IMG/VR virus record: IMGVR_UViG_3300020118_000126
Span: 1-35,122 of that record
From: a virus
Lineage: Duplodnaviria; Caudoviricetes
DNA length: 35,122 bases
Direction: 5' to 3' (one strand)
The notes under the pieces are model-generated. The model saw only the letters and a list, made by a program, of their open reading frames with translations. It made no database searches and was not told where the DNA came from. Position numbers and translations under genes: made by a program. Positions within the stretch are counted from its first letter, which is position 1; every line of letters starts with the position of its first letter. This document shows, in pieces, positions 1-30,684 of this stretch.

Positions 1-1170
1 GGTCACAGCGACGTCCCGCAGCGTGCCGCCATTGCCGCCATTGGCCGTCGCATTGGCTGCGGTCAGACCGCCGCCGCTGCCGCCATCGCTGCCGGAACCT
101 TGACTGGCCAGTGATCCTGCGCCGGCCGCCGTTGAAAGCCCCGCGGCCGTGCCGCCACCGCCACCGCTTGCCGCGAAATTGCTGGCGCCGCCGGCCGCGC
201 CCGATCCGCCTGCGGCACCGCCCAGCGCGCCGGCTGTCCCGCCGGTGCCCGCCGAGGCATTGCCGCCCGCACTGCCCTCGCCACCACCGCCACCGCCGCC
301 GGACGCGACCCCCGCCGCGCCGTTCGACCCCGCACCGCCCGCATAAGCCGTCAGCCATGCGCCGAACGATGAATTGACGCCAGCCGCACCAGCCGCGCCG
401 CCCGTGCCAACGGTGACGGTTTCGGTGCTTCCCAGAGTGGACGTTGGGATCTGCAATTCGCGGCCGGCGCCACCGCCGCCACCGCCACCGCCGGATGCCG
501 CGGTCGACGCGGCGACGACGACGCCGTTGCCTCCCCCGCCGCCGCCGGCAAAGGCGATGACGCGCGTGAGCGACCCGAACACCGGTTTGGTCCAGGCGCC
601 CGAGACGGTGAATATCTGCACGTCGGCGCTGGCCGGTAGGCCGAGATCGGCCTTCAGTTGCGCTATCGTGCGGTTGGTCCAGGCACCGGCCTTGCGCTGC
701 AGGATGTCATCGTTCGCCGGCGACAAGCCGCCAATCGTCGTCAGGTCGGCGTCATGCGCCTCGACGTCGCTACCGATGACCAGGCCGAGAGTGCCGCGCG
801 CCGCCGAGGCGCTGGCGCTGGTGACGATCGAACGGCCGAAGCTCGGGCAGCTATAGGTCGCGACCGCCGTCGAGCTGGTGAAATAGAAGCATTGATCGGC
901 TGACGGCGAGAGTCCCGCGATGGCGACCAGCTTGGCGTCGAGAGCGGCTGCGGTGAATGCCGCGATCGTTGTCAGCGTGGCCTTGGCCGAGGCGCACGGC
1001 GCAACGTGCGTCGCGCAGCCGCTGCCTTGCGCCAACGGGACCTGCTCGGTGCCGGTGAGCGTCGCCGCGATCGGCAAATCGCTGACTTTCTGTGCCGTTG
1101 CCGCCTGCGGCATGCACGCCGCCAGCGCTCCCGCCGCGACACACGCGGCGAGCCATTTCATCAATCGCAT
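1..1170 (-). CDS. Gly-rich tail fibre/receptor-binding protein with N-terminal signal-peptide-like leader (3' end outside window, >390 aa)
   Basis: Translated by hand; absent from the ORF track because no stop falls in the window. AAGGAG RBS, then ATG 1170: MRLMKWLAACVAAGALAACMPQAATAQKVSDLPIAATLTGTEQVPLAQ, two LDAKLVAIAGL/HDADLTTIGGL shaft repeats, then QIFTVSGAWTKP...AGGGGGG Gly-rich domain. Lies directly after the tail-tip gene. Confidence 0.9.
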   Translation of the reverse strand, partial: MRLMKWLAACVAAGALAACMPQAATAQKVSDLPIAATLTGTEQVPLAQGSGCATHVAPCASAKATLTTIAAFTAAALDAKLVAIAGLSPSADQCFYFTSSTAVATYSCPSFGRSIVTSASASAARGTLGLVIGSDVEAHDADLTTIGGLSPANDDILQRKAGAWTNRTIAQLKADLGLPASADVQIFTVSGAWTKPVFGSLTRVIAFAGGGGGGNGVVVAASTAASGGGGGGGGAGRELQIPTSTLGSTETVTVGTGGAAGAAGVNSSFGAWLTAYAGGAGSNGAAGVASGGGGGGGEGSAGGNASAGTGGTAGALGGAAGGSGAAGGASNFAASGGGGGTAAGLSTAAGAGSLASQGSGSDGGSGGGLTAANATANGGNGGTLRDVAVT

Positions 1171-1180
1171 CGCGATCTCC

Positions 1181-3823
1181 TTATAAGGTCGATTCACGCC
1201 GTCCGGCGCCGTGGTCACCCGGCGGCGGTGTTGGCGGCGGCGTGTAGATCCCGCCCGTCGAGGTGGAATACCAGTTGATGAAGGCGTAATCAGGCGACGC
1301 CTTGCGACTTATCGCCGGCGTGATATCCACCTCATATGCGCTGGTCGAAAATCGCCAGAACACGCCGTAGATCGTCGTATTGGCGAGCCCCGATAGTGTG
1401 CCGTCCGGAAACGCCATCGACCTCCCGTCGTCGAGCACGGCGGTGAATGCCGCGATATAGATATGCGTGTCATCGCTGGTGACGGGATAGGCCGGGTTGA
1501 GCGCATCGATGTTGTAGGCCGCGCGCGAGACGCCGAGCGCTCCCGCCGCGACGGGACCAAGGACGAGCCGGTCGCCGACCTTGCCCCTGGTCCGGTAGCT
1601 TACCGCGACCTGATAGACCTGTTGCGCCGCAATACCATTCGAGATCGTGCGCGAAACAGTACCGGGATCGAGTGTGGTGTCAGCGATCCAGTTCCCGGCA
1701 CCGTCTTCCGCGAGCATCGGCGTGCCATCTTCGTTGAGAAGGACAGCCCCGCCTTCGGCGAGCAGTGCCGCGACGGTGCGATATTCGGTGATGATCGCCT
1801 CGGCATAGGCGCCGGTGAAGGCGCCCGACAGGAACAGCGCCGGGATCACCGCTCCGGCCGCGCTGGTGACGGTGCCGCCGGTCAGGCCCCAGTCGGCCGG
1901 CGCCGGCGCGACCGGCGTCACCGGGGCAAGGCTGACGGTATAGGCGGTGACGGTCGAGATATCCTCGTGCGCCCGGCCATAGACGTTGAAGCTGACCAAT
2001 TTGACGCTGATCGTGCCGCCGACATTGGTGTTCGGATAGGCGAACTTGAACACCGCGTCGTCGAGCCGCACGAACGGCGCCCCGCTGGAATGTGCGGCCG
2101 GATAGGTGCCCATGAAACCGCGGTGCAGCGTCGTCAGGTTATAGGCATTCGCGCCGGTCAGGGTCGCTGTCTGATAGGTGACGATCTCATCATCGACGAG
2201 GCACATCGAAGCGCCAGCATTGGCTTCCGCTGCGGTCGCGTTGCCGAGCGCGCCGAGCGATGTCGCGAGGTTCACCGCGAGCGTGTTGGTCGTGTCCGGG
2301 TCGGCGTGATTGGCGAGCCCCGCCGACAATGTGCCGAACCGCGCCGGGCCGTTGATCGTGCCGACACGCTCATACTTTGTGTCGACGCAGATATAGACGT
2401 CGCAACCGCCCCATGTCGGCGAGGTCGAGGCAGCGGCGCACCATATCTCGGGACCGTGCGCGGTCAGCGCTGGCGGGGCATTGAATAGGACCGGCGCTGA
2501 TACCGAGCCCGGCGCCACATCGAAGTTCGGCGAATAGCCATCGCTCGACGTCGAGGCGCGAGCCGCGGACGATGCGACGCCGACATCGACATGCTCGGCG
2601 GTAAACGTCAGCGTGTCGGCGCTATCGGACTCATCGATCTGCAGGATGCGCACCAACTGGCGGCTCAACTGCAGTTCATCGGTCGTCGTCGTCAGCGTGA
2701 CGAGGTCCATCGGCTCAAGCAGCACGAAGTCCCACGGCAGCGGGAAGGTATATTGCAGGCGTTTGTAGAGCGTCCGGTTCTTGAGAAGATCGGCCGCGTG
2801 CTGGGCGATGCCCGCATCGCAGATCGAATGCCACGTGGTCGGATCCTGCTTGCGGACGCCGTTGAGGTCGATATCGGCATCGTCGAAAGATGCTGCAACG
2901 CCGACGTCATATTGGTGCGCGCGATCGAGGAATTCGACCTGGACGACATTGTACGCATCGCTCTGGTCAATGATGTTGATCTGGACCGGCGCCAGGAAAT
3001 CATTCTCGGTGAGGTCGTATTCCGGCGTCAGGTTCGGTGTGAAGGTCACCCCGTTCCCCGTCGCGGCGCGATCGCCATAGGGCCTGATCTTCAGCACGCC
3101 TTCCGACCAGAACGGCGCCGAATTGGAGAGGTCCGTGATCTCGGTGACGTGTTCGCTCGCCTGGACCTGCGATTCGAGCAGCGGCGAAACGAGCAGGTTG
3201 TTCGCGCGGCAATAGGTCGACCATTCCGTCCAGTCGCCGAGCAGTCCCGAAGTCCAGCCCGGTAGGCCCCATTGCGTGTTCGTCAGGAAGGCGGTGAGCC
3301 AGTCTTTCGGGTCGGCATCGGTCAAGCCGGACATCTGGATCGGCCAGTTCACCTCGAAGCTGTGGTTCGGCAGGGTCGCGCTGTCGTTCAGCGCGTAATC
3401 CTGGGCATAGACATAGGCGATCCTGGCATAGGCGCGCGCCTCGGCCGGATAGAGCGAAGTCAGGTAGCTCCACACCGGCTGGGTCGGCGTGCCTGTCGCG
3501 AGCGAAAGCCCGGCGGCGGCCAACGAGGTGAACACCGACTTGTCGCGGTAGATCGTCGCGATCGAGGTGACCGGCCCTTCGCCGATCGCCATGATGATGG
3601 AGGCGGTATAGGTGTAAGTCGTATTGCTGTTCGACCCGCCGAACCCCTTGCCCGAGCTCGTCTTGGTCGTGTGCGGAATCGCGGTGAAGGCGTTATACCA
3701 GATGAGGTTGCACTTCGCCCGGTTCCGGCCTGCGCCGATGGTCAGCGGGATGCCGAGCGTCGAGGACTGGACTTGGATGCCGTTCAGCTTCGGGTCGGAG
3801 GTGGAGGTGTGCTTGCCGCCCAT
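1181..3823 (-). CDS. Tail tip/host-specificity protein (gpJ/GTA baseplate-like), ~880 aa
   Basis: Follows the DUF2460-DUF2163-NlpC/P60 cluster; motifs GIPLTIGAG, AIGEGP, LLEPMDLVTL, LHRGFMGT. Start moved to ATG 3823 (MGGKH), 1 nt after the upstream stop. Confidence 0.88.
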   Translation of the reverse strand: MGGKHTSTSDPKLNGIQVQSSTLGIPLTIGAGRNRAKCNLIWYNAFTAIPHTTKTSSGKGFGGSNSNTTYTYTASIIMAIGEGPVTSIATIYRDKSVFTSLAAAGLSLATGTPTQPVWSYLTSLYPAEARAYARIAYVYAQDYALNDSATLPNHSFEVNWPIQMSGLTDADPKDWLTAFLTNTQWGLPGWTSGLLGDWTEWSTYCRANNLLVSPLLESQVQASEHVTEITDLSNSAPFWSEGVLKIRPYGDRAATGNGVTFTPNLTPEYDLTENDFLAPVQINIIDQSDAYNVVQVEFLDRAHQYDVGVAASFDDADIDLNGVRKQDPTTWHSICDAGIAQHAADLLKNRTLYKRLQYTFPLPWDFVLLEPMDLVTLTTTTDELQLSRQLVRILQIDESDSADTLTFTAEHVDVGVASSAARASTSSDGYSPNFDVAPGSVSAPVLFNAPPALTAHGPEIWCAAASTSPTWGGCDVYICVDTKYERVGTINGPARFGTLSAGLANHADPDTTNTLAVNLATSLGALGNATAAEANAGASMCLVDDEIVTYQTATLTGANAYNLTTLHRGFMGTYPAAHSSGAPFVRLDDAVFKFAYPNTNVGGTISVKLVSFNVYGRAHEDISTVTAYTVSLAPVTPVAPAPADWGLTGGTVTSAAGAVIPALFLSGAFTGAYAEAIITEYRTVAALLAEGGAVLLNEDGTPMLAEDGAGNWIADTTLDPGTVSRTISNGIAAQQVYQVAVSYRTRGKVGDRLVLGPVAAGALGVSRAAYNIDALNPAYPVTSDDTHIYIAAFTAVLDDGRSMAFPDGTLSGLANTTIYGVFWRFSTSAYEVDITPAISRKASPDYAFINWYSTSTGGIYTPPPTPPPGDHGAGRRESTL

Positions 3824-9740: not shown

Positions 9741-10065
9741 CCCCCTTTGGGGCGAGCCCGGATTCGGCGAGGACATCGCGTAGCGCGGTACCGAGCGCGG
9801 CCATGTCTTCCGGGCCTATCATGTCGTCCAGCGCTTCAGCGGTGAGTTCCGGATCGATCTTCTGCAGGCCGATCGCGAGAATAGCCACGATGTGCTCGGT
9901 ATTTTCGAGCAGTCCGGTGATGGTGCCAGGAGCGCCATCCGCGCCATCGCCCAGGGCCTGGACAGACGCGTTGATCGCGTCGATGTGCGGCGCAGCGCGG
10001 CGGAGCGCGCCGAGCTTGTAGGGGGCGATCTCGAAAGACCGCCCCCCAAGAGCCAGCGTCGCCAT
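9685..10065 (-). CDS. Tail assembly chaperone (gpG-like)
   Basis: Between tail tube and tape measure; TAATG coupling; carries the slippery site. Confidence 0.85.
   Translation of the reverse strand: MATLALGGRSFEIAPYKLGALRRAAPHIDAINASVQALGDGADGAPGTITGLLENTEHIVAILAIGLQKIDPELTAEALDDMIGPEDMAALGTALRDVLAESGLAPKGEAKAPSEPTQAAGASTSS
9739..9752 (-). other. Programmed -1 ribosomal frameshift site CCCCAAAGGGGGAA
   Basis: In-frame GCC CCA AAG GGG GAA contains C-CCA-AAG and A-AAG-GGG (X XXY YYZ) plus G-GGG-GAA, at the canonical gpG/gpGT position. Confidence 0.85.
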
Positions 10066-10829
10066 TATGCAATGGTCCCGAACTGGAAGACGTTGTTGCT
10101 GGAGTCAGCGAAGGCCATCATGTCGACCTCGTTGATCGTCCAGTCGTCCTGCTTGGTGGCGAAGCTGAACTTCGTCACCATCGCCGCATAGAGCGCGAGG
10201 GTCATGCCGCTGCGCGGGTTGAGCAGATCGACCTTCATCGTCGGCGCGGCGCCCATCGGCGCATTGACGACCAGCGCCTTCTTCGCCGTGGTCGACGTCG
10301 CGGTATAGACATAGTCGATATAGACCGTCTTGCCGGTGTCCGCCGCGGCGAACAGATAGGCACCGGCGGTGACGCTGAACTGCCCCGTGGCCGGTGCGCT
10401 GGCGACCTGCGTGTAGGGGTTGCCCAATGCGTCGCGGACCGCGAGCGTGCGCGACCAGGTGCCGCTGCTCGGAACGGTCGGCGTAATCGTGAACGGCGTG
10501 GCCGGGATCAGCGCGCCCGTGGTGTCGTAGACGACGCCGGCAATACCGCTGGCGATCGGCTGGCCGACGATGACTGACTGAAACAGCAGGCCATCGAGCC
10601 GCGCGAACTTCGCCTTACACTCGATCTTCAGCTTGCCGCGCCCGAACGCTACCGCGGCCATGTTCTGGCCGTGCAGCGGCTTGGCATCCCACGAGAAATC
10701 GACGCTGACGTCCTGCAGCGTGCCGATCAGGATCGGCGTCGGCAGAGCAACGGCGGCGCCGGTGTAATCAGTGAGCTGCGTCGTCCAGAGCGAACCGCTG
10801 CCGAACGAATAGGTGTCATTTGCGGCCAT
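10065..10829 (-). CDS. Major tail tube protein
   Basis: FGSGSLW, GTLQDVSVDFS...K.LHGQ, FATKQDDW; AAGGA RBS; position before the chaperones. Confidence 0.85.
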   Translation of the reverse strand: MAANDTYSFGSGSLWTTQLTDYTGAAVALPTPILIGTLQDVSVDFSWDAKPLHGQNMAAVAFGRGKLKIECKAKFARLDGLLFQSVIVGQPIASGIAGVVYDTTGALIPATPFTITPTVPSSGTWSRTLAVRDALGNPYTQVASAPATGQFSVTAGAYLFAAADTGKTVYIDYVYTATSTTAKKALVVNAPMGAAPTMKVDLLNPRSGMTLALYAAMVTKFSFATKQDDWTINEVDMMAFADSSNNVFQFGTIA

Positions 10830-10899
10830 GGAACATTCCTTCTTTCAAAGAGAAACCGTCGGAATCCTCCGAGGGCAGGGGCGGCCGTGTGGCCGGGGA

Positions 10900-11133
10900 T
10901 CAGTCTGCGGGCGACACGGCCGGGGCATCGGTCGGCGGCGCGGCGTTAGCCGTTGGCGCCTTACCCGCGCGGCGCGGCGCGCCATCTGGCGCGGGGGCGA
11001 AGCCATAAACAGCAAGGCCGCCCAGATCGCCCTCGGACGCGTCGTCCGGGACATCGACAAAGCCATCGACGACAGTGAGAGGGCCGGTCGAAAGGTTGAT
11101 GCCGGACACGTCAGCGGGCGCTGAATATCGCAT
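10900..11133 (-). CDS. Small hypothetical virion-module protein (77 aa)
   Basis: GGAG RBS; GC3-rich codons; between tail terminator and tail tube. Confidence 0.7.
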   Translation of the reverse strand: MRYSAPADVSGINLSTGPLTVVDGFVDVPDDASEGDLGGLAVYGFAPAPDGAPRRAGKAPTANAAPPTDAPAVSPAD

Positions 11134-12074: not shown

Positions 12075-12964
12075 CAGGCGACGACCGGGACGTGATAATT
12101 CTGCAGCATCGCGTCGATATCGGGCGGTAGCGCGCCCGACTGACCCGGCGCGCCGCCAAACCAAAAGCGCTCCGTCCCGACTCCGGGGGTTTCGCGCTGG
12201 ATCAGCGACGGGTCGCGGCCCTTCGCTTTATGCCGCCCGACGACGAGCCTGAGACAGGCCTCTTCGATGTCGTCCGGCACGTTCTGCGTCGCATAGGTGA
12301 AGGTCAGCGCCGCGCTCGCATCGGCAGCATTGAAGGTATAGATGCCCGCGACCGCGGTATATTGCCCCACGGCCGGGCTCGCCGCGACGCGGGTGAGCGT
12401 GACGCCGCTGGCCCGCTTCACGCTCTGGTCGCACGAGAAGGTCGCAGCGCCCGCAACGGTCACCGTATAAGGTCCCGTGGCGGGCACCGGACGGCTCTCG
12501 ACCACCGACGTGCCGAACCCGGCGACATAGCTGACCGTCAGCGGCAGCGCCGCCCAAGCCATCATGCGCCCGGTCGAGGAATCCAGCCGGACCAGCGTTC
12601 CGGTCTCATAGTTGACCTGGAAGTCAGCATTCTCGACCAGTACGGTGACCGTCTCGGCATTATAGGATGCCTGTTCAACCAGGGTGACCGAGATCACCGG
12701 CCAGCGGCTCAGCTGGATCGTCCACAGCCCTGCCGGGACGTGGTTGCGGGTCCGCGCGATATAGAACTGGTCTTCGATATGTTCCGGCGCGAACACGCGG
12801 TTGGTCGCGTTCATCACCGTCTTCGAAATCTGGCTGATCACCCGCGAAATCCACGCGTCATCGGTCGTCGCCGTGATTCCCAACTCGCTTTTGGCGATGG
12901 CGAGGGTCGTCAGATCGTAGCTGGCCGCTGGTGCCAGGATGGTCGTGACGACCTCAGTGCTCAT
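12074..12964 (-). CDS. Head-tail adaptor (HK97 gp6/SPP1 gp15-like) with inserted beta-domain
   Basis: DLTTLAIAKSELGI, LSRWPVISV, VSYVAGF, VPDDIEEACLRLV. Start ATG 12964 in an ATGA overlap. Confidence 0.82.
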   Translation of the reverse strand: MSTEVVTTILAPAASYDLTTLAIAKSELGITATTDDAWISRVISQISKTVMNATNRVFAPEHIEDQFYIARTRNHVPAGLWTIQLSRWPVISVTLVEQASYNAETVTVLVENADFQVNYETGTLVRLDSSTGRMMAWAALPLTVSYVAGFGTSVVESRPVPATGPYTVTVAGAATFSCDQSVKRASGVTLTRVAASPAVGQYTAVAGIYTFNAADASAALTFTYATQNVPDDIEEACLRLVVGRHKAKGRDPSLIQRETPGVGTERFWFGGAPGQSGALPPDIDAMLQNYHVPVVA

Positions 12965-14133
12965 TGCCATGACGCATCAGGCCTCCCGCTTTCGCGCCAC
13001 TCGCCGACCGATTGGATGACGGGCGCTGTCTCGGGTCCGAGCTCGGCCGGCCAAAGCACCATCAATTCGAGGTGGCCGATCGGCACCCGGTTCGCGAGGT
13101 GCAGGGCGTTCCCGGCTGCTTCCCAGTCCCGCCAGAAGGCGATGTCACCATCGGTGCGGCCTTCGTTCCACGAGCCATCGGGTGCGGGCACATCATGGAA
13201 CCACGGCTTGGGCAGCGCGCGGAGCTTCTCGGCGCGGATCAGCGTCAGGCCGAAATGAGCGGTCGATACGCGCGCGAGATCTCCGGCAAATGTGTCGATC
13301 GGCACACCGACGGCATTGGCGCCGCCTGCGGCCCGGATCGTGAACAGCCGGCCACTGACCGTGCCCCGCCCCGCCTGGACCGCGGCGATCGCGTCGGCCT
13401 CCGGATAGCAGCACATCAGCTGCATCAGCAGCGAGACGTCCCGGGCGGTGAACACCGAGTCATAGTCGAGCGTCAGGATCGCATCGGGCGCGTCCTCACG
13501 AATAGCTTCCTCGATCGCACGCTCGAGGCACTGGCCCCAGAAGGCGCCGGTGCAGCGGCGAAGCTTGATGTTCAGCCGCGGCAGCGCCTCAATGCTCGCG
13601 AACATGTTATCCATGAAGCCGAGCCGTGGCACGGACATGACGGCCGACACGGAAATCTCGGATCGGTGCGGCTTCGTCCCGACCAGGTTGAGCGAGATCG
13701 GCAGTGCGGCGCAGTCGGCGAGTTCAGATTGCCATGGGCGGATGAGCATCAGCCCAGCCTGCGCCATCGCGCGATTCAACTGCTCTTCGTCGAACAAGGC
13801 CTTGTGAAAGTCGTCGGGGGCCGACTGGCCGCCCATGATGTAGCCCTCGGTCGGCTGGCGCGCGCCAGCGAGATAGTTTTCGGCGATCTTCGCAAAGTCA
13901 GGGACGGCGACGCTCAGGGTGCCGCCTGGCCTCAGGACTCGGGTCCAATCGGCCAGCACCGCGGCGATCTCGCCGGAAGGGTAGTGCTCGAGCACATGTG
14001 ACGCCCGGATAGCTTCGACGGTGCCGTCAGCATGCGGGAGCGGATAGATGGCGGAGCCGTGCGCGTTACCCATCGGCGTAAAGCCATCGGGCGAAACGGC
14101 GCCGGCGCCGAGGTCGAGGCGAAGTGCGCTCAC
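12961..14133 (-). CDS. Class I SAM-methyltransferase fused to GT-A-fold glycosyltransferase-like domain (390 aa)
   Basis: N-half: LRLDLGAG (motif I), ASHVLEH, RVLRPGGTLSVAVPD. C-half: ILTLDYDSVF (DxD), HFGLTLIR, KPWF, GDIAFW, IGHLE. GTG 14133 overlaps the upstream TGA. Confidence 0.8.
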   Translation of the reverse strand: MSALRLDLGAGAVSPDGFTPMGNAHGSAIYPLPHADGTVEAIRASHVLEHYPSGEIAAVLADWTRVLRPGGTLSVAVPDFAKIAENYLAGARQPTEGYIMGGQSAPDDFHKALFDEEQLNRAMAQAGLMLIRPWQSELADCAALPISLNLVGTKPHRSEISVSAVMSVPRLGFMDNMFASIEALPRLNIKLRRCTGAFWGQCLERAIEEAIREDAPDAILTLDYDSVFTARDVSLLMQLMCCYPEADAIAAVQAGRGTVSGRLFTIRAAGGANAVGVPIDTFAGDLARVSTAHFGLTLIRAEKLRALPKPWFHDVPAPDGSWNEGRTDGDIAFWRDWEAAGNALHLANRVPIGHLELMVLWPAELGPETAPVIQSVGEWRESGRPDASWQ

Positions 14134-14489
14134 TTTGCGCTCTCCGGCGTGCGGAGCGCGAGGGTCCGCATGTCTTCCAGATGATAACGAACCGCTGAAA
14201 TCTCGCCGGCCAGGTCCTTCGCCTGTGATGGGCGAATGCCCTCGTCCCACGCGGCATCTGCGGCGGCCTGGAGGAACGCGCGGACGTCGTGGTCACCGCC
14301 ATTCCAAAGCTCGCGGGACATGACAAAAACCTCGTCCTCTGGCGGAATCTCTCCGGGCGGGAAGGTTTTGATTGTGAATGGCTGGACGAACCCGCGCTGG
14401 CTCGGGCCTCCGCCCTCATCCTTCACGCAGATCGCTAAACGGACTGAGCCGCCAGCGCGCGAGCGCTCGACGAAAAATTCGTACTTCAT
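14130..14489 (-). CDS. Hypothetical protein (119 aa)
   Basis: GAGG RBS; GTGA coupling to the MTase-GT gene. Confidence 0.7.
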   Translation of the reverse strand: MKYEFFVERSRAGGSVRLAICVKDEGGGPSQRGFVQPFTIKTFPPGEIPPEDEVFVMSRELWNGGDHDVRAFLQAAADAAWDEGIRPSQAKDLAGEISAVRYHLEDMRTLALRTPESAK

Positions 14490-15237: not shown

Positions 15238-16551
15238 TTACGGCGACTTCGCGGCGACCAGTGGCCCGGCAACGGTATTGTCACCAAGGTCGTGGTTGTT
15301 GATGTCGAAGCGCTCGGTGCCGAGCAGGCCGATCTGGTCGTTCTCGAAATAGCGATGATCGGACCGCTTGATCGTCACACCGCGGCGCTCGCCGAGGGCC
15401 GAAGCCTTGGCGAGATCGCCGAAATAGAACATCGGCTTGCCGGAGCCCGGCGTCGCGACCGGCAGCTTCTGGGCGAACTTGACCGGGAACCCGGCGAGGC
15501 GCGGCGCGATCGGGTTTTCCAGAATGTCGATCGTGTTGCCACCGGCCTTCGCCTTGAGCCGCGCGACGATGCCGTAGAACGCCTGCTGCGACATATACCA
15601 CTTCGCACCCGCGAGGGCATATTGCGGCAGCATCCCCATAACCCCGAAGAGATCGTCCTGGGTCATCGCACCCCATGTCGCCGACGACACCTGGAACTGG
15701 CCAGCGGTGTGGTTGCCGTCCTGGAACAGGAACGACAGGCCTCGGATGCCGCCGAACCCGGACGAGCCATCACCGTTGAAGCCGCAATCGTCCTCCTTCG
15801 CGGCGAACGCATAGGCGATTTCGCCAACAAGCCAGTCCGCGACAGAGATGACGGCGTCTTCCGCGATTTCATTCGACATGCGGGTGAGCGCACCGAGCTT
15901 TTTCGCGGTCAGGTTGATGTTGTCCCAGATCGCCTGAGACTCGGCGACGGCCGAATTCTCGGCGGTGAACGAGGCGGTGAGCCCGCCGACGCGGCGCGGC
16001 CAGTTCAGCGTGTCGCTGCCCATCGGCACGACCTGACATTCCTGGCGGAACACGCCGAACTCTTCGCGAAGCACGATGATGTTCGCGAGCAGTTCCTCGG
16101 GGACGAGGAAGCCGCCCGCCGAGTTGACGTTCTCGCCCTGGGCCTTCTCGACCGCGATGCCGCGCGACTTACACCAGTCCTTGGCCTCGGCGTTGTCGAA
16201 CATCGTCGCCTTGAACCACATACCCGCGGTGTAAGCCTGGTCGACCGCGCGGACGGTCTGGCCAGCGACCTCCTGATCCTTGAAGTGCTTCAGCTGCCCA
16301 TAGAATTTATGGGCGCTTGCCGGGGCGGCCGGGGTCATGCGCTCCTGGCCCGCGACCGGCGTGGCGAGGTTCGCGGCAACCTTCTCGGCCTCCTCGACGC
16401 GCGCGAGCTGCTTCTGCAGATCGGCGATCTTTTCTTTCAAGGCGTCATAGACGTCCTCCTTAAAACCGTCGGCCTCGGACTTGCCGGCCATCAGTTCCAG
16501 TTCATCGACAGCCTTGCTCAGCGCCTGCCGAAGCTCATGCTTCTTAGCCAT
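15238..16551 (-). CDS. HK97-fold major capsid protein with N-terminal coiled-coil scaffold (437 aa)
   Basis: SAGGFLVPEE, LTAKKLGAL..MSNE..ED, FNGDG, FGDL, TERFD; follows the prohead protease. Confidence 0.95.
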   Translation of the reverse strand: MAKKHELRQALSKAVDELELMAGKSEADGFKEDVYDALKEKIADLQKQLARVEEAEKVAANLATPVAGQERMTPAAPASAHKFYGQLKHFKDQEVAGQTVRAVDQAYTAGMWFKATMFDNAEAKDWCKSRGIAVEKAQGENVNSAGGFLVPEELLANIIVLREEFGVFRQECQVVPMGSDTLNWPRRVGGLTASFTAENSAVAESQAIWDNINLTAKKLGALTRMSNEIAEDAVISVADWLVGEIAYAFAAKEDDCGFNGDGSSGFGGIRGLSFLFQDGNHTAGQFQVSSATWGAMTQDDLFGVMGMLPQYALAGAKWYMSQQAFYGIVARLKAKAGGNTIDILENPIAPRLAGFPVKFAQKLPVATPGSGKPMFYFGDLAKASALGERRGVTIKRSDHRYFENDQIGLLGTERFDINNHDLGDNTVAGPLVAAKSP

Positions 16552-16661
16552 GTGGGGGCTCCATCTGTGGGAATGCGGTCGCCATCGCGGCGGTCGCGGT
16601 GCGGCTTGCCCAAGGCCGGATGGGGCGTTCGCCTCGCGGCGAATTCTAAAATGATTGCCGA
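16552..16661 (-). promoter_or_regulatory. Structured leader of the major capsid gene
   Basis: Hairpins TTCGCC-GCGA-GGCGAA (16628-16643) and CGGCCTT-GGGC-AAGCCG (16602-16618); CCATC can pair with GATGG next to the RBS. Confidence 0.4.
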
Positions 16662-17786
16662 TCAGCCGATCGGCGGGAGGGTCGCGCGAAGCTCGCGCGC
16701 CTCTTTCAGGCGCCGCTCTTCGGGGGTCAGGTTGATGGGCACCTCGACCGGGGGCGCGGCCAGCTCGATCACCTGATCGTCATCCTCGTCGCCAGGCTCT
16801 TCCTCGGCGTCGTCGTCCATCAGGTCCTTGATGCACTTGCCCATCTGCTCGAGATGATCGAGCGCTTTGCCGAGCGCCGTCTTGGTCGCGGCGGAGAGCT
16901 TGCGCCCGGCCTTGTTCTGGACGTTCGCGTCGACCTCGCTGGGCGGCACGACCTCGTCGGGCGGCGACAGCGCGTTATCGGGGGCGGAATCGTCGCCCAC
17001 CGTGCGCAACGTGAGGCCCTGATCGAGCACCAGCACCTCGTCCGGGTTCTTCGCCCAGGCCTTCACGACATCCCGAACGCGCTTGGCCGCGTCTGCGGAA
17101 ATCGCCTTGGTGGCCTGGATATAGAACCGCGGCTCGGAGCCACTCTTCGCCTGGCTGCGCAGCGCTTCGAGATCCTTGCGCGGCAGGAACACCGTGTCGC
17201 CGCTGTCGAGCACCTTCTCCGCCCAATCCATGAGCGGTGCGGTATTGATGCCCATGCTGCGGGCCTCGATCAGAGCCGAGGGATTGGCCGGAATTGAGCA
17301 GCAGGAAATTTCCAGAAGCTCTTGTTTTGTAAAGTTTATTCCGTATGGCCGCTCTTTGTCGGTGCTCCATGCCCATTCCTTGGGCATGAAGCCGACCGAG
17401 ACGGCGCGAAGGAAACCGGCGTCGACCAAGCGGAAGATCGTGTCGGCCAACGGATAGACTTCCGCCGAAGCGAATTCGATGTCGCCAACCAGTTGATCAT
17501 TGATCACCGAGACGTTCGATGCGCGGCCGATTGGCGGCTCCCACGACATGTGGCTGAACAGCGCGACCGGGTTCTTGTTGAAGATCGACAGGCCCCAGCC
17601 CTTGGGATCGATCGAGTCCTTCGAATGGTCGACGGTCGCGTCGCTGAACACGAAGCGCTTGGTGCGCGCCGCGCCTTCGACTTCCTGGGCGTCGCCCGTC
17701 GAGAAGCGGAAGATCATGCCATCGGCCTGTCCGCCATCCTTGGCAGCAGCGCGGAAATCATCGGCGGAGAGAAGGTTCATCGGCAT
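16662..17786 (-). CDS. HK97-family prohead protease with C-terminal extension
   Basis: NPVALFSH, PPIGR, LRAVSVGF, LLEISCCSIPANPSAL; acidic C-terminal tail with KAGRKLS. Confidence 0.92.
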   Translation of the reverse strand: MPMNLLSADDFRAAAKDGGQADGMIFRFSTGDAQEVEGAARTKRFVFSDATVDHSKDSIDPKGWGLSIFNKNPVALFSHMSWEPPIGRASNVSVINDQLVGDIEFASAEVYPLADTIFRLVDAGFLRAVSVGFMPKEWAWSTDKERPYGINFTKQELLEISCCSIPANPSALIEARSMGINTAPLMDWAEKVLDSGDTVFLPRKDLEALRSQAKSGSEPRFYIQATKAISADAAKRVRDVVKAWAKNPDEVLVLDQGLTLRTVGDDSAPDNALSPPDEVVPPSEVDANVQNKAGRKLSAATKTALGKALDHLEQMGKCIKDLMDDDAEEEPGDEDDDQVIELAAPPVEVPINLTPEERRLKEARELRATLPPIG

Positions 17787-17798
17787 CACCGCGGCTCC

Positions 17799-18857
17799 TT
17801 ATGGGGCGACCAGCACGGCAACGCTGCCGGGCGTGGTGGCATCGCCGAGGTCATGGGCAACTGCATCGAACCGCTCCGTGCAGAGCAGCCCCAGCTGGTC
17901 GGTGTCGAGATAGCGGTGATCGCTGCGCGCGATCGTCAGGCCACGCCGCTGGCCCAGCACCGTCGCGGCGTACAAGTCGCCGAACGCCAGCATGCCTTGC
18001 CCGGTCAGCGTGGTCGCGACCTGGGGCAGCTTCTGCGACATGATGATCGGGAAGCCGTTGAAATACGGGGTCGGGATGCCGTCGACTTCGCCGGTATAGA
18101 GGTAGCCGCCGCCGGCACCGGCCGCGAGGCGGGCGAAGGTCTGCGCGAAGCCGGTCACACTGACGAACCACGCCGCGCGCGCCATCGCGGAAGCGCGGAC
18201 CTTGGTCATCAGCAGGGAAAGGTCGGTGCCATCGAGCGTCGCGAAAGTGTTGTGCCCGGCCGCCGCGGTGACCTTCGCCGCGGCATGCGCGCCGTCGAGC
18301 ACGATCTGCATGATGCCGCGCATGCCGCCGAAGCCGGACGTTCCATCGCCGTTGAAGCCGCAATCGTCTTCCTTGGCTGCCAGTGTCCGGGCGATCTCGT
18401 TGGCGACGAAGTCGACGATATCGACGATCGAATCCTCGGCGAGCTCATTGGAGAGCGTGACGAGCGCGCCGAGCTTCTTCGCGGTGAGCGCGACGCCGTC
18501 CATGGCGGCGGCCGTCGACTGAGCGGTGCCGCCCTCGGCGATAAAATAGGCCGTGGTGCCGCCCGTGCGGCGCGGGAAGATCGAAGTGTCGGAGCCCATC
18601 GGCCAGACACAGGCGCGACGCCGGAGCGCGCCGTAGCTGTCGCGCAGATCGAGGATCGCGTTCTCAAGTTCGAGCGGCACCAGAAAACCGCCGGCGCTGC
18701 CGATACCCTCGGCCTGCGCCTTGGTGAACGTGACGCCCTTTTTGTCGCACCAGTCGCGCGAATCCTTGCGGCCGAACACGGTCGCAAGGATCCACTGGCC
18801 GGAGCGCTGATAATAAGCGTCGACCTCCGGACCGGACCCGGGAAAAGCTTTCTTCAT
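17799..18857 (-). CDS. Second HK97-fold capsid protein paralogue (352 aa, short N-terminus)
   Basis: Collinear with the 15238-16551 protein: SAGGFLVP, PMGSDT..PRR.GG, LTAKKLGAL, AAKEDDCGFNGDG.SGFGG.RG, RSDHRY...DQ.GLL.TERFD...HDLGD. AAGGA RBS. Confidence 0.92.
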   Translation of the reverse strand: MKKAFPGSGPEVDAYYQRSGQWILATVFGRKDSRDWCDKKGVTFTKAQAEGIGSAGGFLVPLELENAILDLRDSYGALRRRACVWPMGSDTSIFPRRTGGTTAYFIAEGGTAQSTAAAMDGVALTAKKLGALVTLSNELAEDSIVDIVDFVANEIARTLAAKEDDCGFNGDGTSGFGGMRGIMQIVLDGAHAAAKVTAAAGHNTFATLDGTDLSLLMTKVRASAMARAAWFVSVTGFAQTFARLAAGAGGGYLYTGEVDGIPTPYFNGFPIIMSQKLPQVATTLTGQGMLAFGDLYAATVLGQRRGLTIARSDHRYLDTDQLGLLCTERFDAVAHDLGDATTPGSVAVLVAP

Positions 18858-25633: not shown

Positions 25634-26192
25634 TGGCGTTTTCCGAAATCTTGGTGAGCCATTTCGTCTCGAAGCTAAGCCAGCCCCGTTCGATTATCGT
25701 GTCGATGATCCGGCCGGGCGGCCACTCGTCGGTCGCTTCCCTCGCCAGCTTGCCGATGAGCAGGTGATAGGCTCGGTCAGCGAGCGGGTTCCGCTTCGCC
25801 TTCCGGTGATCGATAAACCCAGACCACTGCTCGCCAGACACCCCGGGAGGGGGCGGCATCGACTTCGGCCAGCGGAGCTTCGGACCGGCCTCACGTGCGG
25901 TCGCGTGATTCACATCCGGGTGGGGGAGCGGGAGTGGGGTTATTTGAGGGGTTTGGGGAGAAAGAAGGGGAGAGGGAGAGGGGGCGGGTTCGTCACGGTC
26001 AACGTCACGCGTGACGTCACGCGTGACGGTAGCGGCCTGCGCCTCTGCCTTAAGTGCATCCCGACGGCGTTGCTGACGTGCCGCCGCAGTCGGGTCGCGG
26101 CGCACTTCGAGCGCTTCAGCTATCTCAGCGATATCCGATGCTGATAGGCCTTTGTCGGCCATCAGGCGCAAAGCCGCGGCGGTCAGGCTCAT
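25518..26192 (-). CDS. Replication initiator (lambda O-like organisation), 224 aa
   Basis: ATG 26192 (MSLTAAALRLMADKGLS); AARQQRRR, repeat-coded VTRDVTRD linker, C-terminal WSGFIDHRKAKRNPL...IIERGWLSF. Confidence 0.75.
   Translation of the reverse strand: MSLTAAALRLMADKGLSASDIAEIAEALEVRRDPTAAARQQRRRDALKAEAQAATVTRDVTRDVDRDEPAPSPSPLLSPQTPQITPLPLPHPDVNHATAREAGPKLRWPKSMPPPPGVSGEQWSGFIDHRKAKRNPLADRAYHLLIGKLAREATDEWPPGRIIDTIIERGWLSFETKWLTKISENANGQRHRDDRPSGWAARPGMEGVEPASLDDEGAGYQARQ
25920..26028. repeat. Probable replication origin: palindromic iterons plus purine-skewed tract
   Basis: 26-bp perfect palindrome CGTCACGCGTGACGTCACGCGTGACG 26003-26028, half-site CGTCACG 25991-25997, adjacent G/A-rich tract ~25920-25990, all inside the initiator gene. 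Confidence 0.7.
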
Positions 26193-27187
26193 GCTGCGGC
26201 ACCCATACAGCCGCAGCCGCTCTCGCCCGCGGCGTATTCGAACGTCGCTCCCGGCATGGCGCGTAGCTGCTGCGCGAAGGCGTCGAGCGTCAGGGGCTTC
26301 TTGCCATCGCCGCCGCGGCGGTCGCTTAGCATGGACACGTTGCCACCCAGGTAGGCGATAAGCTTGCGCTCCATCATGGCGTCGTAGGAAAACCGATCGG
26401 GCTGGACGCGGTAGCGGTTCGCCCAGTGCGCCTGCCCGGCGCGGACGCACATGCCGCCACAGTTGCTGTGCCGATAGCCGAGCCCGTATAGGCGCGGGGA
26501 GCGCAGACCAAACGTCTCGATCGGCGACATCAACAGTTCGAGGAATTCGGTGCCGCCGAGGTTCACCGCGATCTCCGCATCGATCAGCGGCGCGTGGTAG
26601 ATCCAACCGTCGAGCAGGTTGCGCGGGCCAATGCCCCCGCCGGCGCCGTCGTCGAACCGATGCCGCTCATCGAACCCGATGCCGACGGCGAAATGATCAG
26701 GCGCGCCGAACAGTTCGCTAACACGGTGACAGTTTCCGATGCGCCATGCGTCCGCTGCCTCGCGCTTCGCGATGCGTGAGCAGAGGTCGACCTGGTTGTT
26801 GCCGAGGAACTTGCGGTCCCGGAAAATTTCCCATGGGTCGCGCCCTTCCACGAGCCATATCAGTTCGGGAATGGCCTCCATGGCGCGCGCGCGAAGGTCT
26901 GCAAGGCAGGCACGCCATTCGGCGTTTCCCCGATACTCCTCGATCGGCACGTCGGCGCTGACGCGATAATCCGGGAAATCGTCCGGGGAGACCGACCAAT
27001 TCAGCTGGCGCCCGAATACGTCCGCAGCGCCTTCGACGAGGAAGCGGTAGTTGTCCGCATCCTCATAGAGCGTGTCGGTGAAGACGAGGTAGAACTCAGC
27101 GTCAGGGTGGCGGGCGCGATCGATCTTTGCTGCGCGCCACGAGCCCTCGCCGCTGCTGAACATGACGTAGCGACGGCCGTCCGTCAT
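26189..27187 (-). CDS. PAPS-reductase-like (PP-loop/adenine nucleotide alpha-hydrolase) protein
   Basis: YVMFSSGEGS, FTDTLYED.D.YRFL, CSRIAK, PRLYGLGYRHSNCGGMCVRAG, C-terminal CGC. Confidence 0.75.
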   Translation of the reverse strand: MTDGRRYVMFSSGEGSWRAAKIDRARHPDAEFYLVFTDTLYEDADNYRFLVEGAADVFGRQLNWSVSPDDFPDYRVSADVPIEEYRGNAEWRACLADLRARAMEAIPELIWLVEGRDPWEIFRDRKFLGNNQVDLCSRIAKREAADAWRIGNCHRVSELFGAPDHFAVGIGFDERHRFDDGAGGGIGPRNLLDGWIYHAPLIDAEIAVNLGGTEFLELLMSPIETFGLRSPRLYGLGYRHSNCGGMCVRAGQAHWANRYRVQPDRFSYDAMMERKLIAYLGGNVSMLSDRRGGDGKKPLTLDAFAQQLRAMPGATFEYAAGESGCGCMGAAA

Positions 27188-29891: not shown

Positions 29892-30058
29892 CTTCTCAAT
29901 CCTTCCATGTGATGCTGAAATCGGGTTTCTGCTGCCTTGCGGGCAGCGGCTTGGCGCTTTGCTCGGCCGCGACGGCGGGCGGCGAGGGTGATCTCCATCT
30001 CCCGAGCCAAGCGGCGCCGCTCGATCTGTTTGTGGAACCAGGCGATGAGGCGCTTCAT
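29888..30058 (-). CDS. 56-aa basic hypothetical protein (not in ORF track)
   Basis: MKRLIAWFHKQIERRRLAREMEITLAARRRGRAKRQAAARKAAETRFQHHMEGLRR*; ATGA overlaps at both ends. Confidence 0.65.
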   Translation of the reverse strand: MKRLIAWFHKQIERRRLAREMEITLAARRRGRAKRQAAARKAAETRFQHHMEGLRR

Positions 30059-30684
30059 GCGGCCGCCTCCGGATAGTCGCCGACGCGCTCAAGCTTCTTC
30101 CGGCATGGTCCGATCCAGTGCAGCCGGGTCTCGGTGCTGCCCATCCAGACCGGCCAGGCGTACGCCGTGGCCGTCGACCCCTCGGGAGCGAGCCGGCCCT
30201 TGTGCATGACCACGCGCTCGGTGAACTGCAGGACGTGGCTGGGCGGATTGACGTTGAACAGGCGCTCGAATCGGCCGACGCTTTCGAGGAACGCAGCACG
30301 AACGATAACGGCGCAGCCCTGCCGACTGGTCTCGGTCATGCGGGCGATGAACTGCTCGGCGAGACGGAATGGCGGGTTGGTGATCGTCCAGTCGACCGGC
30401 TCCGGCAGAGGGCCGAACAGATAGTCGTTCTGCGGATACCCGGCGCCGTAGTCGTGAATGTCAGACGCTTCGACGCTCGCGAAATACTCGCCAAGCGGCT
30501 TCGCCATGTGCCCGCGGTTCGCTGCAGGCTCTCGGCAGGTGAACAGCGCAAGCGGTTGGCTTTCGTTGCACTCGAGCCATTCGCATAGCGCTCTCGTCGC
30601 CCAGGGCGGCGTCGGGAAGTCGTCGAGCGAATCGTGCGCCTCGTGGCGCTGCTGCATCACCGCTGTGGAGCGGTTCTGGCTCAC
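30055..30684 (-). CDS. Orphan amino-DNA (m6A/m4C) methyltransferase
   Basis: DDFPTPPW, EPAANRGH (motif I variant), ITNPPF (motif IV). Confidence 0.85.
   Translation of the reverse strand: MSQNRSTAVMQQRHEAHDSLDDFPTPPWATRALCEWLECNESQPLALFTCREPAANRGHMAKPLGEYFASVEASDIHDYGAGYPQNDYLFGPLPEPVDWTITNPPFRLAEQFIARMTETSRQGCAVIVRAAFLESVGRFERLFNVNPPSHVLQFTERVVMHKGRLAPEGSTATAYAWPVWMGSTETRLHWIGPCRKKLERVGDYPEAAA

What the first reader, a model, noticed from the sequence alone, without database searches (positions are those of the whole stretch)
760..1170. Tail fibre with an export signal peptide and paired cysteines: possible periplasm-matured virion fibre
Seen: the fibre gene after the tail tip, missed by the ORF track, starts MRLMKW-LAACVAAGALAAC-MPQAATA|QKVSDLP. 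That is a basic n-region, a hydrophobic h-region, an AxA SPase I-type site after residue 26 and an LAAC lipobox at C19. Cleavage at ATA|Q would expose KVSDLP.A..LTG.E.VP..Q, a motif I recognise from the extreme N-terminus of other phage fibres. The mature part visible here has exactly four Cys in two close pairs (C52/C59, C94/C108). The second pair sits in a fibre repeat that, as I recall, usually reads DKLPYFTG...LT.FGR without Cys. Known: tailed virions assemble in the reducing cytoplasm, and disulfides form in the periplasm. Inference: this fibre is exported, oxidatively folded and joins the particle at or after lysis, or it is displayed on the lysogen envelope as an adhesin or receptor blocker.
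Basis: partly seen in the sequence, partly recalled or inferred. Interest (0 to 1): 0.85.

Follow-up and report, generated by a model that had tools for sequence, protein, structure and literature searches.

The report
Exported phage fibre with snap-on socket
This phage's tail-fibre gene begins with a conserved, predicted secretion signal and paired cysteines, and the tail-tip protein encoded beside it carries a three-repeat loop predicted to grip the fibre's three-fold end, so the fibre likely folds outside the cytoplasm and would snap onto the virus only when the cell bursts.

Summary
Confirmed. The gene (1170 to <1, minus strand, cut by the contig end) follows the tail-tip gene of an uncultured siphophage, likely of Sphingomonas. 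A26|Q27 is invariant in 15 of 15 aligned proteins; the lipobox is in 3 of 18. All 29 leader-bearing members have an even number of mature cysteines (3 have none), against 26 of 68 leaderless ones. Disulfides therefore follow export but are not its purpose.

The mature N-terminus (residues 27-75) is a widespread trimeric 'plug'. The tail-tip protein holds three 8-residue LLxEDG units, a 'socket'. In relatives the two occur together or are absent together. A three-plug/one-socket model scores 0.75 (best control 0.01). Cultured phage phi18:3 has three signal-bearing proteins annotated as virion proteins by MS/MS.

Best reading (0.65): Sec export, folding in the periplasm, docking on the tail tip at lysis. 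No export, cleavage or binding experiment exists. The scan noted exported fibres before on other DNA (376 notes, at least 357 genomes), and one note described triple-repeat docking. My ten literature searches found no paper describing the route.

The parts
1..1170 (-). Fibre gene, 390 aa visible, 3' end cut off by the contig end
   Evidence: PHROG 863 (tail) E 5e-7
1177..1181 (-). Shine-Dalgarno AGGAG, 6 nt before the ATG, overlapping the tail-tip stop codon
1093..1170 (-). Predicted Sec/SPase I signal peptide, residues 1-26, cut after A-T-A
   Evidence: SignalP not available
1114..1125 (-). LAAC lipobox (residues 16-19), not conserved in the family
   Evidence: 3 of 18
946..1092 (-). 'Plug' module, residues 27-75: short helix, beta-hairpin, helix; predicted trimer that grips the socket
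   Evidence: pLDDT 85
994..1017 (-). C52...C59 pair in the hairpin loop of the plug; both touch the socket in the model
781..939 (-). Fibre repeat 1 (residues 78-130) with the C94/C108 pair on a predicted hairpin
631..780 (-). Fibre repeat 2 (residues 131-180), shared with many leaderless phage fibres
25..597 (-). Glycine-rich distal domain (residues 192-382), likely a polyglycine-II bundle for host binding
   Evidence: Pfam PF21722 E 3.7e-4, below its cut-off; Bxb1 gp33 E 0.042
1694..1765 (-). 'Socket': three tandem 8-residue units of type LLxEDG, a loop inserted in a C-terminal domain of the tail-tip protein
1181..3823 (-). Tail-tip (central fibre, megatron-like) gene, 880 aa, no leader, carries the socket

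Best explanation
The gene encodes an accessory tail fibre with a conserved, predicted Sec signal peptide; it is likely cut after A26 and folded as a trimer in the periplasm, where its cysteine pairs would form disulfides, and its N-terminal plug is predicted to bind the three-repeat loop of the cytoplasm-built tail tip, so it would join the virion only at or after lysis. Shown by sequence and calls: the gene's position, the conserved leader and cleavage site, cysteines in pairs only, and the joint presence or joint absence of plug and socket. Predicted: trimer and 3:1 docking. Inferred: export, cleavage, oxidation, the timing at lysis, and a role in first, reversible host binding through the glycine-rich tip, beside a leaderless main fibre (seen downstream in relatives, cut off here).
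For: (1) A26|Q27 invariant in 15 of 15; no internal start near the cut site is shared by the four loci checked. (2) Even mature Cys count in 18 of 18 plus 11 of 11 further leader-bearing members (3 have none), against 26 of 68 leaderless ones. The plug pair is in 17 of 18 leader-bearing and 0 of 142 leaderless proteins. A head-domain pair is present in 7 and lost on both sides in 1. (3) Socket pattern within 1 kb upstream of the plug in 13 of 29 sequence groups (2 look spurious), 0 of 29 on the reverse strand, 4 of 28 downstream. The settings include siphophage tips, a Mu gp48 wedge and small adaptors. (4) Five distinct loci whose tip has the loop are followed by a leader-bearing plug fibre. 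Three tips with the same domain and no loop and 5 tips 60-63% identical without that domain have no plug gene next to them. (5) Three plugs plus socket: ipSAE 0.75, best of 3 controls 0.01; runs agree in at least 90% of contacts; partner pLDDT at least 65; the mark was reached by 116 of 157 solved and 2 of 215 mismatched pairs, counts that hold only roughly here. All three copies bind through Q27-L32, the residues that cleavage would free. (6) A leaderless plug protein is a virion protein by MS/MS annotation in phi13:1 (gp015). (7) phi18:3 gp085-087 have signal-like leaders ending xxA|Q or xxS|Q and are annotated structural by MS/MS.
Against: No experiment on export, cleavage, oxidation or binding. 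SignalP could not be run. The 17/18 versus 0/142 contrast is close to one evolutionary event: the plug Cys pair needs only 2 changes on a poorly resolved 58-column tree. The socket pattern was written after seeing examples. 16 of 29 plug groups have no socket within 1 kb, among them leader-bearing L022 and L032, and L211 has none within 3 kb; phi13:1-type and KBS-S-2A plug genes show none next to them either. The complex controls did not include a scrambled acidic peptide. Virion disulfides occur in subunits built in the cytoplasm (Milano PMC10811340, Jabs PMC13419713, gp39 PMC13576161). MS/MS annotation does not rule out co-purification and does not show cleavage. The phi18:3 proteins do not carry this plug.
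Confidence: 0.65

Rival explanations
1. The protein is exported but works on the cell, not on the virion: it masks the receptor in the lysing cell or lysogen, blocks superinfection, or acts as an adhesin, and the plug is only a trimerisation relic.
For: Relatives also encode a leaderless long fibre downstream that could do all the host binding. Some leader-bearing members have no socket nearby. Bdellovibrio MAT proteins are exported phage-like fibres used by cells (PMC10769870, passages).
Against: It does not explain why the tail tip gains the socket loop exactly where the plug gene is present, nor the docking model. The gene is tightly coupled to the tail-tip gene. No membrane anchor is seen at the C-terminus of complete homologues (by eye).
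Confidence: 0.18
2. In this phage the protein is a lipoprotein, cut and acylated at C19, and stays tethered to a membrane, where it could hold virions by the socket.
For: LAAC at 16-19 fits the lipobox. Two relatives encode a 73-74 aa lipoprotein with an LGAC box, a closely similar leader and a bare plug just before the fibre gene.
Against: A lipobox is in only 3 of 18 family members, while A-x-A|Q is in all 18. Several members have no Cys in the leader.
Confidence: 0.09
3. The fibre is made and attached in the cytoplasm like any other (leader kept, or a start at M20), and its disulfides form by air oxidation after release.
For: An in-frame ATG exists at M20. Extensive virion disulfides are known without export. 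Leaderless plugs sit next to the same socket, so docking needs no export.
Against: M20 is not conserved and has no well-spaced ribosome-binding site. A leader ending in a small-x-small|Q/D/E site is kept across 29 members and needs at least 2, by parsimony 5, gains or losses. The pairs never appear in leaderless plugs.
Confidence: 0.08

Closest known systems
Pseudomonas phage Pa223 tail fibre gp60 on the fibre attachment loop of hub gp59 (bioRxiv 10.1101/2025.06.11.659172; passages read)
   Same: One loop with three pseudo-equivalent units inserts into the base of a trimeric fibre (3:1 docking).
   Different: There the units are three Trp residues in a podophage hub, and the passages mention no leader. 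Here they are acidic LLxEDG units in a siphophage tip. No sequence match of plug or socket to any solved structure was found.
Leaderless phage fibres with the same plug: Cellulophaga phage phi13:1 gp015, cyanophage KBS-S-2A CPKG_00002, and 142 stored proteins
   Same: Same N-terminal module; gp015 is annotated structural by MS/MS.
   Different: No leader and no Cys pair in the module.
Cellulophaga phage phi18:3 gp085, gp086, gp087 (KC821620)
   Same: Signal-like leaders on proteins annotated structural from virion MS/MS.
   Different: No plug or socket of this family, 0-3 Cys, Bacteroidota host; the record makes no remark on export.
Bdellovibrio MAT fibres (PMC10769870; passages read)
   Same: Signal peptide followed by a conserved N-terminal domain and a phage-like fibre body.
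   Different: Encoded by the cell and displayed on the cell; N-terminal domain about 130 aa and often an S74 chaperone; here a 50-aa plug in a phage tail operon.
Disulfide-linked virions: Agrobacterium phage Milano (PMC10811340, passages), siphovirus gp39 (PMC13576161, passages), Jabs (PMC13419713, abstract)
   Same: Disulfides in tail parts.
   Different: Those join sheath, tube, baseplate or capsid subunits; 'periplasm' does not occur in the two full texts searched.
Polyglycine-II bundle tail appendages: Bxb1 gp33 tail wing brush (PDB 9D93), S16 adhesin (6F45), as described in PMC13243192 (passages)
   Same: Glycine-run distal domain; weak match to gp33 (E 0.042).
   Different: Match is weak and the domain is cut off by the contig end.

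Membership tests
Sec/SPase I substrate | Basic n-region, uncharged hydrophobic h-region, A-x-A before the cut | tested here: met
   (own rule; 1 of 35 window genes and 7% of shuffles pass)
Sec/SPase I substrate | Cleavage site conserved in homologues, and homologous leaderless proteins start at the same place | tested here: met
Sec/SPase I substrate | SignalP 6 call; processing shown in vivo | not testable with these tools
   no predictor or experiment available
Sec/SPase II lipoprotein | Lipobox [LVI][ASTVIG][GAS]C in this protein | tested here: met
   LAAC 16-19
Sec/SPase II lipoprotein | Lipobox Cys conserved in the family | tested here: not met
   3 of 18
Tailed-phage tail fibre | Encoded in the tail operon after the tip gene, with fibre repeats and tail-family matches | tested here: met
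Tailed-phage tail fibre | Homotrimer with an N-terminal particle-binding domain | tested here: inconclusive
   model only: pLDDT 88-89 for the three plug copies, ipSAE 0.75 with the socket, best control 0.01
Tailed-phage tail fibre | Present in purified virions | not testable with these tools
   uncultured; a leaderless relative is annotated structural by MS/MS
3:1 fibre attachment loop (Pa223 type) | Three pseudo-equivalent units in one chain, one per fibre subunit | tested here: met
3:1 fibre attachment loop (Pa223 type) | Three Trp residues form the inserted surface | tested here: not met
   units are LLxEDG-type against W363/W370/W377
3:1 fibre attachment loop (Pa223 type) | Structural homology of the fibre N-terminus to a solved one | tested here: inconclusive
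   best Z 2.7 for the plug model; 7-7-1 tail fibre Z 2.1, rmsd 2.1, 33 aligned
Bdellovibrio MAT | Chromosomal, cell-displayed adhesin | tested here: not met
   gene lies in a phage tail operon
Bdellovibrio MAT | Conserved beta-rich domain of about 130 aa after the signal peptide | not tested
   no direct comparison with MAT sequences was made
Polyglycine-II bundle adhesin (Gly_rich_2, Bxb1 gp33, S16 adhesin) | Family match above the cut-off and the bundle fold | tested here: inconclusive
   21 bits against a cut-off of 24.3; E 0.042; domain not folded

The most novel reading that the evidence does not exclude
Plug and socket form a portable, compartment-crossing connector used across sipho- and myophages and on head spikes: particles leave the cytoplasm with open sockets and pick up periplasm-matured fibres at lysis, possibly also fibres from other phages or prophages in the same cell or lysate, so host range could change without any change in the genome; lipid-anchored bare plugs would capture socket-bearing virions at the membrane.
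Probability: 0.25. Interest if true: 0.93.

Novelty: new variant of a known kind. Interest (0 to 1): 0.8.

Why it matters
Tailed phages are taught to assemble wholly in the cytoplasm. A fibre that goes through Sec and joins at lysis would add a second compartment to virion assembly and give receptor-binding parts access to Dsb enzymes and other envelope chemistry. The hardware is of a known kind (trimeric fibre on a 3:1 loop); the route has no precedent in my searches. This case makes it directly testable: plug (49 aa) and socket (24 aa) are small, and a named isolate, Sphingomonas sp. RT2P30, carries a prophage with both. A 24-residue peptide that captures a trimer would also be a compact tool for phage display and fibre exchange in laboratory phages.

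Tried and rejected
No solved relative by sequence for the plug or the socket; no clear fold match for residues 27-180 (Foldseek 0 with E<=0.001; best Z 2.4) or for the plug alone (best Z 2.7; BFVD 0 with E<=0.001). These misses do not show that the fold is new. The single-chain model of 27-180 was poor (pLDDT 61) and no coordinates were returned, so Cys-Cys distances were not measured. No Pfam or NCBIfam family covers the plug; PHROG 19691 'virion structural protein' matched 2 of 15 members weakly (best E 0.002). Atlas hits were all under 0.9. No cultured phage has a close, full-length relative: 0 of 12 matching records cover 80%. No further homologues of the plug lipoprotein were found. The tail-tip C-terminal part found no viral relatives. 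The Fisher p of 5e-22 was set aside because the sequences are related. 'Export serves oxidation' was rejected (3 leader-bearing members without Cys). The lipobox as a family trait was rejected. The phiCbK and rumen-phage papers had no relevant passage. The paper behind the Cellulophaga proteomics is not held, so its tables were not seen. Literature searches with no paper on exported tailed-phage fibres in the listings; subscription papers and bioRxiv supplements are outside them.

Full report
OBSERVATION. The window is a whole 35,122-base virus record at 64.9% G+C. Its minus strand carries terminase, portal, protease, capsid, tape measure, a DUF2460/BR0599/NlpC tail-tip module and an 880-aa tip protein: a siphophage. 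No integrase is visible and the contig is cut, so lysogeny is not shown. The closest match among genome contigs is a prophage of Sphingomonas sp. RT2P30 (67% over residues 1-129), so the host is likely a sphingomonad (inference). The gene in question starts at ATG 1170, 10 bases after the tip stop codon, with AGGAG 6 bases upstream, and runs off the contig after 390 codons.

THE LEADER. A search with residues 1-185 gave 360 hits, of which 120 were listed. Thirteen close homologues keep a leader of the same build. With P0062 and the query, A26 and Q27 are invariant in 15 of 15. Leaderless relatives begin at the same motif that cleavage would expose. The lipobox is in 3 of 18, so SPase I is the family rule. 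M20 is an in-frame ATG here but not in the three other loci checked. SignalP was not available; my own rule passed 1 of 35 other window genes, 2 of 245 other stored proteins and 7% of shuffles.

THE CYSTEINES. Of 263 stored proteins, 168 hit the plug profile: 17 of 18 leader-bearing ones have the C52/C59 pair, 0 of 142 leaderless ones do, and 8 have the module internally. The repeat pair is in 14 of 14 leader-bearing copies caught by a pattern and 0 of 19 leaderless copies; the pattern missed P0062's Cys-free copy. Mature Cys counts are even in 18 of 18, and in 11 of 11 further members taken from loci, against 26 of 68 leaderless proteins of 200 aa or more that have any Cys. The pairs sit at several unrelated places, and one head-domain pair is lost on both sides at once. 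Two limits apply. On a 70-row, 58-column tree with most forks open, the plug pair needs only 2 changes, so that contrast is close to a single event; the leader needs at least 2 and by parsimony 5. And three leader-bearing members (L197, L211, L069) have no mature Cys. Pairs appear only where there is a leader, but a leader does not need them. Virion disulfides without export are also known (Milano, PMC10811340, and gp39, PMC13576161, passages; Jabs, PMC13419713, abstract). Distances were not measured.

PLUG AND SOCKET. Residues 27-75 fold as a short helix, a hairpin and a helix (pLDDT 85). The profile finds 5,604 clusters at E<=0.001 among 1.84 billion representatives. The tip protein upstream has three tandem 8-residue units of type LLxEDG at 1694-1765, in a loop of a C-terminal domain. 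The same triple unit ends the gene before a plug gene in unrelated settings: a Mu gp48 wedge protein (L126), a second Mu-like prophage (L128), a small adaptor (L197), tiny ORFs in sphingomonad genomes and viral contigs. Among 104 loci reduced to 29 groups, the pattern lay within 1 kb upstream in 13 groups (L057 and L069 look spurious), on the reverse strand in 0 of 29 and downstream in 4 of 28; the pattern was written after seeing examples. A natural control is stronger. Five distinct loci whose tip carries the loop (window, L002 = L213, L003, L017, L214) are followed by a leader-bearing plug fibre. Of 25 sphingomonad loci examined, only the RT2P30 one had plug or socket; three (L228, L229, L231) have the same domain with a short turn in place of the loop and no plug gene within the 1.5 kb flank. 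Five of six tips 60-63% identical to the window's lack the domain and go on to leaderless genes; the sixth locus ended too early and was left out. Against this, 16 of 29 groups have no socket nearby, including leader-bearing L022 and L032, so the plug may have other partners or none there.

THE MODEL. Three plugs with the 42-residue socket stretch scored ipSAE 0.75, best of three controls 0.01; runs agreed in at least 90% of contacts and the partner's pLDDT was at least 65. The mark was reached by 116 of 157 solved and 2 of 215 mismatched pairs, counts that hold only roughly for this job. All three copies use residues 27-32, 45, 47, C52 and 59-61, and the socket's three units each lie against the trimer. 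I found no like solved complex by sequence. The model supports binding and does not show it; no scrambled peptide was among the controls.

CULTURED PHAGES. A leaderless plug protein, phi13:1 gp015, is annotated structural from MS/MS, and another is the annotated tail fibre of KBS-S-2A. I saw the record notes only, not the paper.

MECHANISM. Most likely the fibre is made late with the tail genes, exported by Sec, cut after A26, trimerised and oxidised in the periplasm, while the tip with its open socket is built into the virion in the cytoplasm. The two meet when the inner membrane fails at lysis. That fibres can attach to finished particles outside a cell is recalled from T4 and P22 in vitro work, not checked here. 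In L002, L003 and L017 a leaderless adaptor and long fibre follow, so the exported fibre is likely accessory; its distal domains vary, and here it is glycine-rich, weakly like Bxb1 gp33. Why export is favoured is open: stapling by disulfides is at most a later gain. Confidence 0.65; envelope role 0.18; lipoprotein 0.09; ordinary cytoplasmic fibre 0.08.

KNOWN AND NEW. It works like Pa223 gp60 on its attachment loop (passages) but is not of that family by sequence. It resembles Bdellovibrio MATs in being an exported fibre (passages) but is phage-encoded. Ten searches of open papers (listings and abstracts) showed no paper on exported tailed-phage fibres; subscription papers and preprint supplements were not visible. 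The scan holds 376 earlier notes of this kind in at least 357 genomes, none on this sequence; they are unchecked leads and I count them neither way. Verdict: real feature, new variant of a known kind of hardware with an undescribed route; interest 0.8.

Noticed in passing
L002 9711-9935 and L003 10001-10222: A 73-74 aa gene between tip and fibre: lipoprotein leader (LGAC) plus a bare plug without Cys pair. Its leader resembles the window fibre's, suggesting a duplication of the fibre's 5' end. It could tether socket-bearing particles to a membrane. No further homologues found.
   Followed up: partly
window 15238-16551 and 17799-18857 (-): Two major-capsid-like genes (both PHROG 10, E 6e-60 and 4e-41) flank the protease gene.
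   Followed up: no
window 12961-14250, 26189-27187, 30055-30684 (-): A methyltransferase-like gene inside the head-tail region, a PAPS-reductase-like gene and a DNA methyltransferase.
   Followed up: no
L020, L021, L024, L025, about 1100-3000: Cassette in sphingomonad genomes: small gene, then a tiny ORF ending in the triple socket, then a leaderless plug protein of 480-540 aa or more. The first two look like the gene-transfer-agent head-spike base and fibre anchor (names recalled; Pfam gave no hit), so the connector may also serve heads.
   Followed up: partly
L248 4892-10584 (phi18:3 gp085-087): Three signal-bearing proteins annotated structural by virion MS/MS in a cultured phage.
   Followed up: yes
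L032-L035, about 1420-2600: Sphingomonas prophage fibres with leader and Cys pair but an altered plug start and no socket in the gene before them.
   Followed up: partly
L127 9047-12462: After the lysis genes, an 841-aa protein ends in the socket and is followed by a leader-bearing plug protein, outside the tail operon.
   Followed up: no
L128 (minus-strand positions 9812-11062 and 15375-18007): A Mu-like prophage with a leader-bearing plug fibre after a socket gene and two more leader-bearing genes (one twin-arginine-like) after the lysis genes.
   Followed up: no
P0122, P0137, P0148, P0164, P0174, P0210: Proteins with 5-9 matched stretches of the plug profile in one chain; P0144 and P0147 have a socket-like unit directly before an internal plug.
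   Followed up: no
L131 / L022 about 1440-2450: Plug fibre with leader-like stretch and 8 mature Cys, overlapping the end of a primase-like ORF, with no clear start codon.
   Followed up: no
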